This document shows, piece after piece, positions 22,576 through 23,738 of a stretch of DNA of 48,415 nucleotides. The stretch spans positions 960,733 to 1,009,147 of the forward strand of contig JARFOE010000233.1 of NCBI GenBank assembly GCA_031763465.1, in the 5' to 3' direction. Source of the stretch: Squatina squatina (lineage: Eukaryota). The notes beneath the pieces were generated by a model. The model saw only the letters and a list, made by a program, of their open reading frames with translations, was not told where the DNA came from and did not search any database. The position numbers and the translations under genes were made by a program. Position 1 is the stretch's first letter. Every line of letters begins with the position of its first letter.

Positions 22576-22876
22576 AATTTTACACAAGTGAAGGGGAGGG
22601 AATTTTAACTTTTGGTGATAGTATAAATGATTGGCTGCCCAATTATACACCCCTCCCGATTTTCAATTCCATTAACTTCAATGTAACCACTAATCGGGAG
22701 AGGCGTACAATCGGGAGGTGTATGCCAGGCAGCCAATCTGATATTGCCCCATTTCCAATTATCTCCAAAATTTAAAATTTTACCCCAAGAGGTGGCAATT
22801 AAGTTGGAACCTGTAAAGTCCAGAGCACCCTAACTTCACTTGAAATAGAGGTTCTGGAAACAACTGGCAACTGGAG
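22576..22876 (+). pseudogene. Intron-less decayed copy of CSNK1G3 exons 3-4 (retrocopy fragment), interrupted by a MITE and fused to exon 5
   Basis: After removing the MITE and one AAG copy it reads [31 protein letters not shown], crossing exon junctions without introns. 22807-22876 matches real exon 4 at 59/70 nt. Stops at 22831 and 22846. Confidence 0.85.
22594..22786. mobile_element. Foldback MITE, PIF/Harbinger-like, with 3-bp TSD AAG
   Basis: Inverted ends gggagggaattttaacttttggtgata / tatctccaaaatttaaaattttacccc. Inner arms gattggctgcc / ggcagccaatc. Central ccattaacttcaatg. AAG at 22591-22593 and 22787-22789. Confidence 0.8.
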
Positions 22877-23025
22877 ATGGAATCTTTCAGGATTATTACT
22901 TTGGTCCATGTGGAAAATACAATGCCATGGTGCTTGAATTACTGGGACCTAGCTTGGAAGATTTATTCGACCTTTGTGACAGAACCTTTTCCCTTAAGAC
23001 CGTGCTTATGATAGCTATACAGCTA
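22877..23025 (+). CDS. CSNK1G3: CSNK1G3 exon 5 ([50 protein letters not shown]), 5' end anomalous
   Basis: 149 nt, CK1 [10 protein letters not shown] motif, gtaagt donor. There is no normal intronic acceptor upstream, and the usual DGIPQV reads DGIFQD. Confidence 0.75.
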
Positions 23026-23738
23026 GTAAGTATTCCAGTTCTCAAGTTTCACTGAAAAGAACCGTATTATTCTGTTATGAATGGACATTCAGTATAATTT
23101 TTATAAATTACAAATTTGCTTCTAAATTTCCTGTTTTGTGCTATGTTAAAGTGCAGACTAACTCATGAGTATTACTTTTGGCAATTCTCTGGTATTGCAG
23201 CTTAGATTGTTTTTTCTCATCAGTAGCATTTGCCAGTCATGTTTTGGGGTAAAATTGCTTTCTTCCTGACTTCAAAGTTGGCTTTTGATATGAATTAAGA
23301 GCTGGTCTTGAGATAGGCCTAACGCCTGATGACAAAACTTTGATGGAAAGAACCATATGAAGCTGGTAATTTAATATTACCAGGTATATGAACTGAATTT
23401 AGGCATCCCTCTGAATAAGCTCCAAGAGATTTCAATTCTGAACCAGCCATCTAGCTACAATGTAAGATGTCCACAGAGCCTGCAAAGTAAACATGTTATT
23501 GGAGATAACTGAAACAAAATGCTGGTAGAATCGTGGAACATAACCAGACCTTTGCATTGTTTTATACTAGCTTATACCCAGTTCAAGTTTATATGTTGTG
23601 GAGTAGTTTGTAGACTAACATCAATTTGATCTGCNNNNNNNNNNNNNNNNNNNNNNNNNNNNNNNNNNNNNNNNNNNNNNNNNNNNNNNNNNNNNNNNNN
23701 NNNNNNNNNNNNNNNNNNNNNNNNNNNNNNNNNNGGTG

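What the first reader, a model, noticed from the sequence alone, without database searches (positions are those of the whole stretch)
22576..23035. Spliced cDNA copy of CSNK1G3 exons 3-4 welded onto exon 5 inside its own gene
Seen: where intron 4 and its acceptor should precede exon 5, the sequence is an intron-less exon3|exon4|exon5 run. The exon 3-4 part is dead: two stops, 11/70 differences from the real exon 4 at 19498-19567, and a MITE insertion. The first codons of exon 5 are also altered (DGIFQD instead of the usual DGIPQV). The last 44 codons (YYFG...IAIQL) are intact and end at a canonical gtaagt donor followed by intron-like DNA. An ordinary processed pseudogene would continue into exon 6 and decay evenly. 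Inference, three models: (a) one-sided cDNA-mediated recombination into the parent locus, a 'half-finished' RT-mediated intron loss, with exon 5 now using a substitute acceptor (ctggag|at at 22876 keeps frame, whereas tctttcag|g at 22890 would need a phase-0 upstream exon hidden in a gap); (b) a partially processed retrocopy, which the sharp change in conservation disfavours; (c) an assembly chimera between an unlinked retrocopy and the real exon 5, which is quite possible in such a gapped scaffold.
Basis: partly seen in the sequence, partly recalled or inferred. Interest (0 to 1): 0.8.

Follow-up and report, generated by a model that had tools for sequence, protein, structure and literature searches.

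The report
Likely misjoin of retrocopy and exon
In this fragmented shark genome draft, an old, broken, intron-free scrap of a kinase gene's message is joined directly onto one of that gene's real exons, but a related genome holds the two on separate pieces with a different stretch in front of the exon, so the join is most likely an assembly error and not a half-finished intron loss.

Summary
The sequence is as described: an intron-less exon 3|4|5 run of CSNK1G3 with two stops, 11/70 differences from the real exon 4, a 194-nt MITE-like insert, then 44 intact codons and a GT donor. The interpretation changes with outside data. In a related genome about 10% diverged in non-coding DNA (one sample), two contigs overlap exon 5. 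One carries flank, insert and spliced copy and leaves the window 77 nt into exon 5. The other starts exactly at the AG before exon 5, has 1.2-1.3 kb of unrelated upstream DNA and runs on into intron 5. All 16 chondrichthyan orthologous proteins keep PQV. So the spliced fragment is real and old, but there it is separate from the real exon; the window joins the two inside their shared 77 nt. The flank's strand skew is opposite to all 9 blocks of the gene's introns, a hint that the fragment is unlinked. Best reading: assembly chimera (about 0.8). Not excluded: the fragment sits in intron 4 and a real deletion fused it to exon 5 (about 0.1). No reads of the window's own sample were available. One-sided cDNA intron loss is not supported.

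The parts
21782..22575 (.). Unique 5' flank of the cDNA fragment; belongs to the fragment's own locus, linkage to CSNK1G3 intron 4 unproven
   Evidence: One match (self) in G000 for 21782-22593; colinear with the copy in organism A record 1; G+T skew -0.071 against +0.079 for the gene's other non-exonic DNA
22576..22592 (+). 5' part of the exon 3 copy (start approximate)
   Evidence: With the element removed, 26 of 36 columns match a CK1 gamma exon 3 from another contig, probably a paralog; no convincing extension into exon 2 (37 of 2000 shuffles score as high and the alignment is out of register)
22593..22786 (.). MITE-like dispersed repeat, 194 nt, G-run and C-run termini, AA on both sides as a possible target duplication; inserted into the exon 3 copy before the two lineages split (inferred)
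   Evidence: Inverted arms; 39 matches in G000 including self; termini; organism A contigs run from the flank into it (records 1, 9, 17)
22787..22806 (+). 3' part of the exon 3 copy (EVAIKL), spliced directly to the exon 4 copy
   Evidence: relatives read YVAIKLEP here
22807..22876 (+). Dead copy of exon 4, 11/70 differences, two stops; its last two bases (AG) mimic an acceptor
22877..22893 (+). Start of exon 5, still copy-derived (FQD instead of PQV)
   Evidence: 16 of 16 chondrichthyan proteins have P and V at these two positions
22894..22953 (+). Stretch shared by the fragment and the real exon 5; the join lies here, likely near its left end
   Evidence: Organism A record 1 ends at 22953 and record 5 begins at 22875; no residue change in these 20 codons, P 0.00025-0.02 if copy-derived
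22894..23025 (+). Real CSNK1G3 exon 5 (44 intact codons)
23026..23634 (+). Real intron 5, 5' part
   Evidence: GTAAGT donor; covered by one contig per run in organism A
19498..19567 (+). Real CSNK1G3 exon 4 with normal acceptor and donor, on a different contig of the scaffold
17153..17309 (+). Coding part of CSNK1G3 exon 2
   Evidence: 51/52 to two shark proteins
24059..27430 (+). Downstream exons 6, 7, 8 and 11 of the gene, all with open frames

Best explanation
An old, dead, spliced cDNA fragment of CSNK1G3 (exons 3-4 and the first ~77 nt of exon 5) is joined in this draft to the real exon 5, and the join is most likely an assembly chimera. Shown: the fragment and its flank exist in a related genome on a contig that leaves the window at 22953, and the real exon 5 there has different DNA ahead of its AG. 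Inferred: (1) long ago a piece of mRNA was reverse-transcribed into another place, took up a MITE and decayed; (2) fragment and parent exon still share an identical run somewhere in 22894-22953; (3) with patchy short-read cover the assembler walked from the fragment into the real exon and lost the two other arms; (4) scaffolding then set the contig between the exon 4 and exon 6 contigs. The living gene would have an ordinary intron 4 and encode PQV.
For:: X1 record 1 (2446 nt) aligns 21793-22953, then has 153 unlike letters; X1 record 5 and X4 record 15 align 22875-23634, starting exactly at the AG, with 1313 and 1192 unlike letters upstream (orientation checked). Depth bookkeeping explains 5 of 5 X1 bins and 4 of 4 X4 bins tested with the listed records, so no further contig covers the rest of exon 5 or intron 5 in those bins. 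16 of 16 relatives' proteins keep P and V. The AG at 22875-22876 has a pyrimidine share of 0.45 upstream, against 0.68-0.86 for five other acceptors of the gene (three of those windows were placed one base off). Flank skew is below 9 of 9 gene-body blocks; introns are G+T-rich on the sense strand in human and mouse (PMC10030826, passages). The scaffold is 33 pieces of median 1223 nt in this window, and exons 3, 9, 10 and the last exons were not found in the window or the next 40 kb. The rest of the gene is conserved like its orthologues: 2 departures from the majority in 123 residues, against 0-2 for 15 relatives.
Against: No run holding the window's own sequence was listed, so the join itself was never tested on reads. 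The relative's evidence is one sample; the end of the copy at 22953 rests on one contig in one run, and the letters beyond the alignment ends were not shown, so the polypyrimidine tract is inferred. Neither left-over arm was found in G000, which a real deletion would also predict. An identical run long enough for a join is likely only for short words: P 0.25-0.61 for 21 nt, 0.03-0.16 for 33 nt, 0.0004-0.01 for 55 nt; the assembler is unknown. The contig sits in the right place and orientation for the gene. The skew test is about 2 SD, and 1 of 34 blocks in the wider region is as low. Two residue changes are private to this window (S>G in exon 7, E>D in exon 8; 16 of 16 relatives differ from it).
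Confidence: 0.8

Rival explanations
1. Two-step real event: the fragment was patched into intron 4 of its own gene (RNA-templated repair in cis), forming a direct repeat with exon 5 at least ~1.3 kb downstream; later, in this lineage or individual, recombination between the two exon 5 starts deleted the DNA between them, acceptor included. The allele would be crippled or would splice at the weak AG and encode FQD.
For: Explains why both left-over arms are missing from G000 and why the contig is placed correctly. Two private residue changes downstream, one in the SRRDD motif that all 16 relatives keep. Spliced RNA can template repair at its own locus in human cells (PMC12065846, passages).
Against: Needs a cDNA piece to land beside the exon it copies. 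Flank skew is opposite to the gene's introns. Remaining exons have open frames and no more change than orthologues. About a third of the coding sequence is also missing from the region searched, so missing arms mean little.
Confidence: 0.09
2. The fragment lies in intron 4 of its own gene, but the assembler collapsed the short direct repeat and skipped the loop between copy and real exon. The gene is intact. (An artefact too, but with a notable cis copy; most of the weight for 'artefact' goes to the unlinked version.)
For: Same evidence for two separate places; correct placement in the scaffold.
Against: Skew hint; low prior for a cis insertion; linkage was not tested.
Confidence: 0.06
3. One reading: one-sided recombination of a cDNA into the parent locus replaced the 3' end of intron 4 in a single old event, and exon 5 has used a substitute acceptor since.
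For: The window's anatomy alone fits it.
Against: The event would have to predate the MITE and about 16% decay, hence the split from organism A (about 10%); organism A has the same copy unjoined and a separately preceded exon 5. 0 of 16 relatives' proteins have FQD. The substitute acceptor is weak.
Confidence: 0.03
4. One reading: a partly processed retrocopy (introns 3 and 4 removed, intron 5 kept) placed at the gene by scaffolding.
For: Intron-less junctions followed by an intron.
Against: No decay in 44 codons; one contig over intron 5 in organism A, attached to non-copy upstream DNA; no second exon 5 of this gene in G000.
Confidence: 0.02

Closest known systems
Chimeric contigs from mis-joined duplicated sequence (bioRxiv 10.1101/2023.10.31.564742; passages read)
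   Same: Two non-adjacent segments that share sequence are joined in the assembly; here the shared sequence is the start of exon 5.
   Different: The shared stretch is at most 77 nt between an old retro-fragment and its parent exon, not a recent large duplication; not confirmed on own reads.
Class 2 templated sequence insertions (Onozawa and Aplan, PMC5110952; abstract and sections 5 and 9 read)
   Same: Short internal piece of reverse-transcribed RNA at another place, without the mRNA's 3' end.
   Different: Junction marks (microhomology, absence of tail or target duplication) could not be read: the 3' junction is not in the window and the 5' one is decayed. Old and shared by two lineages, not a recent polymorphism.
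Processed pseudogenes / retrocopies (recalled; search listing only)
   Same: Exact exon-exon junctions, stops, neutral decay, transposon insertion.
   Different: Only about 190 nt of internal message; no other piece of a retrocopy found in G000 for exon 2 or exons 7-8.
Whole intron deletions by RNA-templated break repair (PMC12065846; passages read) and cDNA-mediated intron loss
   Same: Spliced junction standing where an intron end should be.
   Different: Those remove a whole intron precisely between the real exons; here the real exon 4 and the 5' part of intron 4 remain, the exon 3-4 part is an extra dead copy, and the relative keeps separate DNA before exon 5.

Membership tests
CSNK1G3 (casein kinase 1 gamma 3) gene | Exon peptides match gamma-3 better than gamma-1 or gamma-2 | tested here: met
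   Exon 4 23/23 to human gamma-3; exon 5 best to gamma-3; [11 protein letters not shown] exon present
Assembly chimera | Left and right parts continue into different DNA in independent data | tested here: met
   Organism A records 1, 5 and 15; a related genome, one sample
Assembly chimera | An identical run at the join at least as long as the assembler's word | tested here: inconclusive
   Only a probability: 0.25-0.61 for 21 nt, at most 0.01 for 55 nt; the copy's own version of 22894-22953 is not in G000
Assembly chimera | No molecules of the same sample span the join | not testable with these tools
   No listed run holds half of the stretch's words
Processed pseudogene (LINE-type retrocopy) | Exact loss of introns at exon junctions | tested here: met
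   Junctions 3|4 at 22806/22807 and 4|5 at 22876/22877
Processed pseudogene (LINE-type retrocopy) | Runs to the mRNA 3' end | tested here: not met
   In organism A the copy stops matching at 22953 and no further contig covers the rest of exon 5; an interrupting insertion or later deletion is not excluded
Processed pseudogene (LINE-type retrocopy) | Poly(A) tail and target-site duplication | not testable with these tools
   The fragment's 3' junction is not in the window; the 153 letters beyond it were not shown
Class 2 templated sequence insertion | Short RNA-derived internal patch | tested here: met
   About 190 nt of spliced internal message
Class 2 templated sequence insertion | End-joining marks at both junctions and a distant donor | tested here: inconclusive
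   Junctions unreadable; distance only hinted by strand skew
Whole intron deletion / cDNA-mediated intron loss | Precise removal of the intron between the gene's own exons | tested here: not met
   Real exon 4, its donor and intron 4 DNA remain; the exon 4 before exon 5 is a dead extra copy
Whole intron deletion / cDNA-mediated intron loss | The cDNA is integrated at the parent exon wherever the copy exists | tested here: not met
   Copy and real exon 5 are on different contigs with unlike continuations in organism A

The most novel reading that the evidence does not exclude
A spliced cDNA patch of exons 3-5 was written into intron 4 of its own gene in an ancestral shark and survives in at least two lineages; in this one, recombination between the patch and the real exon 5 then deleted the acceptor. 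That would be a germline fossil of RNA-templated repair in cis and a two-step route by which a cDNA remodels the intron boundary of its own gene.
Probability: 0.09. Interest if true: 0.62.

Novelty: not a real feature. Interest (0 to 1): 0.13.

Why it matters
If the best reading holds, it matters only as a caution: in gappy short-read drafts an old retro-fragment can be stitched to its parent exon and imitate intron loss or a changed protein (FQD for PQV). The fragment itself is a real but ordinary relic. If the fragment proves to lie in intron 4 of its own gene, it would be a rare inherited trace of RNA-templated repair in cis, which bears on whether that pathway shapes introns in evolution, a question PMC12065846 leaves open (passage).

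Tried and rejected
No RNA holder listed and no run with half of the words, so no expression or splice test; the mRNA-like contigs laid in X5 and X7 differ at 41-43 of 213-231 bases and continue as ITRMEFVHS, i.e. a paralog. A 158-nt contig over the copy's 5' end in X5 (run kind unknown) was not used as evidence of transcription. Searches of G000 for the missing arms: PQV pattern found only the paralog on C163; an acceptor-plus-PQV pattern found one hit that does not continue as exon 5 and is taken as chance; the gene's own exon 3 was not found (the hit is probably a paralog's exon). No other retrocopy piece for exon 2 or exons 7-8. Extension of the copy into exon 2: weak and out of register. 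Contig-end overlaps across gaps, sought to learn the assembler's word size: at most 4 nt at 32 gaps. Earlier scan notes: nothing by sequence or in relatives. Literature: 0 papers for 'retrocopy' plus 'its own intron'; 0 for the first strand-skew query; seen as listings only, none describing this locus in title or abstract start. Decay of the gene as support for a real lesion: 2 private changes are within the range of relatives, so kept only as a weak point.

Full report
Observation. The window holds CSNK1G3 of a shark on the + strand: exon 2 (coding from 17153), exon 4 (19498-19567), exon 5, exons 6-8 and exon 11. Exon 4 is 23/23 identical to human CK1 gamma-3 and the exon 2 peptide is 51/52 identical to two shark proteins. 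In front of exon 5 stands a spliced exon 3|4|5 run. The exon 4 part differs from the real exon at 11 of 70 bases spread over all codon positions and has two stops. The exon 3 part is split by a 194-nt repeat with inverted ends. Exon 5 begins DGIFQD instead of DGIPQV and is then intact for 44 codons to a GTAAGT donor. Had those codons decayed like the copy, about 14.5 residues would differ; none of 5000 simulations left them all unchanged.

Own genome. G000 has 1.52 Gb in 1.15 million contigs; this window is 33 pieces of median 1223 nt with 32 gaps. A DNA search with 22790-23030 gave 3 matches: self, a paralog's exon 5 and the real exon 4; a protein search gave 4: self, that paralog and two more distant kinases. 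Neither a normal start of this gene's exon 5 nor its exon 3 nor other retrocopy pieces turned up. Exons 3, 9, 10 and the last exons, about a third of a 452-residue orthologue, are missing from the window and the next 40 kb (only exon 3 was sought genome-wide), so absence carries little weight.

Related genome. Seven runs of one coded organism held 4-6% of the words of 21782-23634; I laid 4 of the 7. The organism differs from the window by 9.4-10% in aligned columns, so I take it as another species (inference). In X1, record 1 aligns from 21793 to 22953, through flank, insert, exon 3-4 copy and 77 nt of exon 5, and then has 153 letters unlike the window. Record 5 (X1) and record 15 (X4, same sample) align from 22875 to 23634. 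They begin exactly at the AG before exon 5 and have 1313 and 1192 letters upstream that do not fit the window; the coordinate convention was checked on record 22. The listed records account for the depth in all 9 bins tested, so no hidden contig continues the copy or duplicates intron 5 there. At 22831 both the relative's copy and its real exon 4 have C, so one of the two stops arose after the split (table 3). Limits: one sample, one contig for the copy's end, X4 read to about 72%, a filter can drop records, and the letters beyond the alignment ends were among rows not shown. Independently, 16 of 16 chondrichthyan proteins (isoforms included, so fewer species) keep P and V.

Meaning. The spliced fragment is real, old (about 16% from its parent, older than a 10% split) and separate from the real exon 5 in the relative. 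The window passes from one to the other inside their shared 77 nt, probably soon after 22893, since the next 20 codons show no change (P 0.00025-0.02 if copy-derived). That removes the single-event model of half-finished intron loss and the partly processed retrocopy. What remains is how the join arose. An assembler can cross at an identical run; the chance of one in 77 nt is 0.25-0.61 for 21 nt but at most 0.01 for 55 nt, so the chimera needs a short word size, which I could not determine. A real deletion, or a collapse of a tandem repeat, needs the fragment to lie in intron 4. That linkage was not tested directly. The only hint is strand skew: the flank has G+T skew -0.071, below all 9 blocks of the gene's other non-exonic DNA (mean +0.075, SD 0.07) though 1 of 34 blocks of the wider region is as low; sense-strand G+T excess in introns is described for human and mouse (PMC10030826, passages) and its use for a shark is my inference. 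Against a long-dead allele, the other exons are open and depart from the majority at 2 of 123 residues, within the 0-2 of 15 relatives (P0009 left out because it lacks exon 4). For the rival, those two changes are private to this window and one hits the SRRDD motif, the contig is correctly placed, and both left-over arms are missing.

Comparison. The join works like the chimeric contigs made by mis-joining shared sequence (10.1101/2023.10.31.564742, passages). The fragment resembles a class 2 templated insertion, a short RNA-derived patch (PMC5110952, abstract and sections 5 and 9), but its junction marks could not be read, so membership is open; it fails the 3'-end test of an ordinary processed pseudogene. 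It is not a whole intron deletion as defined in PMC12065846 (passages). A search for 'retrocopy' with 'its own intron' found 0 papers; that is one phrase in one library and shows little. Earlier scan notes on other loci were leads only.

Verdict. Observation confirmed; headline interpretation not supported; the weld is most likely not a real feature, and the real element is an ordinary dead cDNA fragment. Interest 0.13. The cis reading (probability 0.09 with a real deletion, about 0.15 for cis linkage at all) can be settled by one search of the flank in a long-read shark assembly.

Noticed in passing
window 24293 and 25561: Two consecutive introns of CSNK1G3 (after exons 6 and 7) start with GCAAGT, i.e. 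GC-AG introns; the paralog on C163 has GT after its exon 6. Conservation in other species not checked.
   Followed up: partly
window 25481-25483 and 25720-25722: Two residue changes private to this window: S>G in the SRRDD motif of exon 7 and E>D in exon 8; 16 of 16 chondrichthyan proteins have S and E. Could be read errors, rare alleles or slight relaxation.
   Followed up: partly
window 22593-22786: Old MITE-like repeat with nested inverted repeats and G-run/C-run ends; 38 other matches in G000 at 69-93% over parts of it, many more contigs in organism A. Family not identified.
   Followed up: partly
L009 (G000:C665962) 602-642, minus strand: An unplaced 41-nt CK1 gamma exon 3 with normal splice sites, probably from a third paralog whose exon 5 is missing from the assembly.
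   Followed up: partly
L027-L031 (G000:C163, about 3.888-3.918 Mb): A second CK1 gamma gene (EPIKSRAP, ITRMEFVHS) with a normal acceptor before its exon 5.
   Followed up: partly
window about 38200-38450: An open stretch reading KSRAPWMSSSIQGRIRKKRDAF, which looks like a LINE ORF2 fragment (resemblance recalled, not tested).
   Followed up: no
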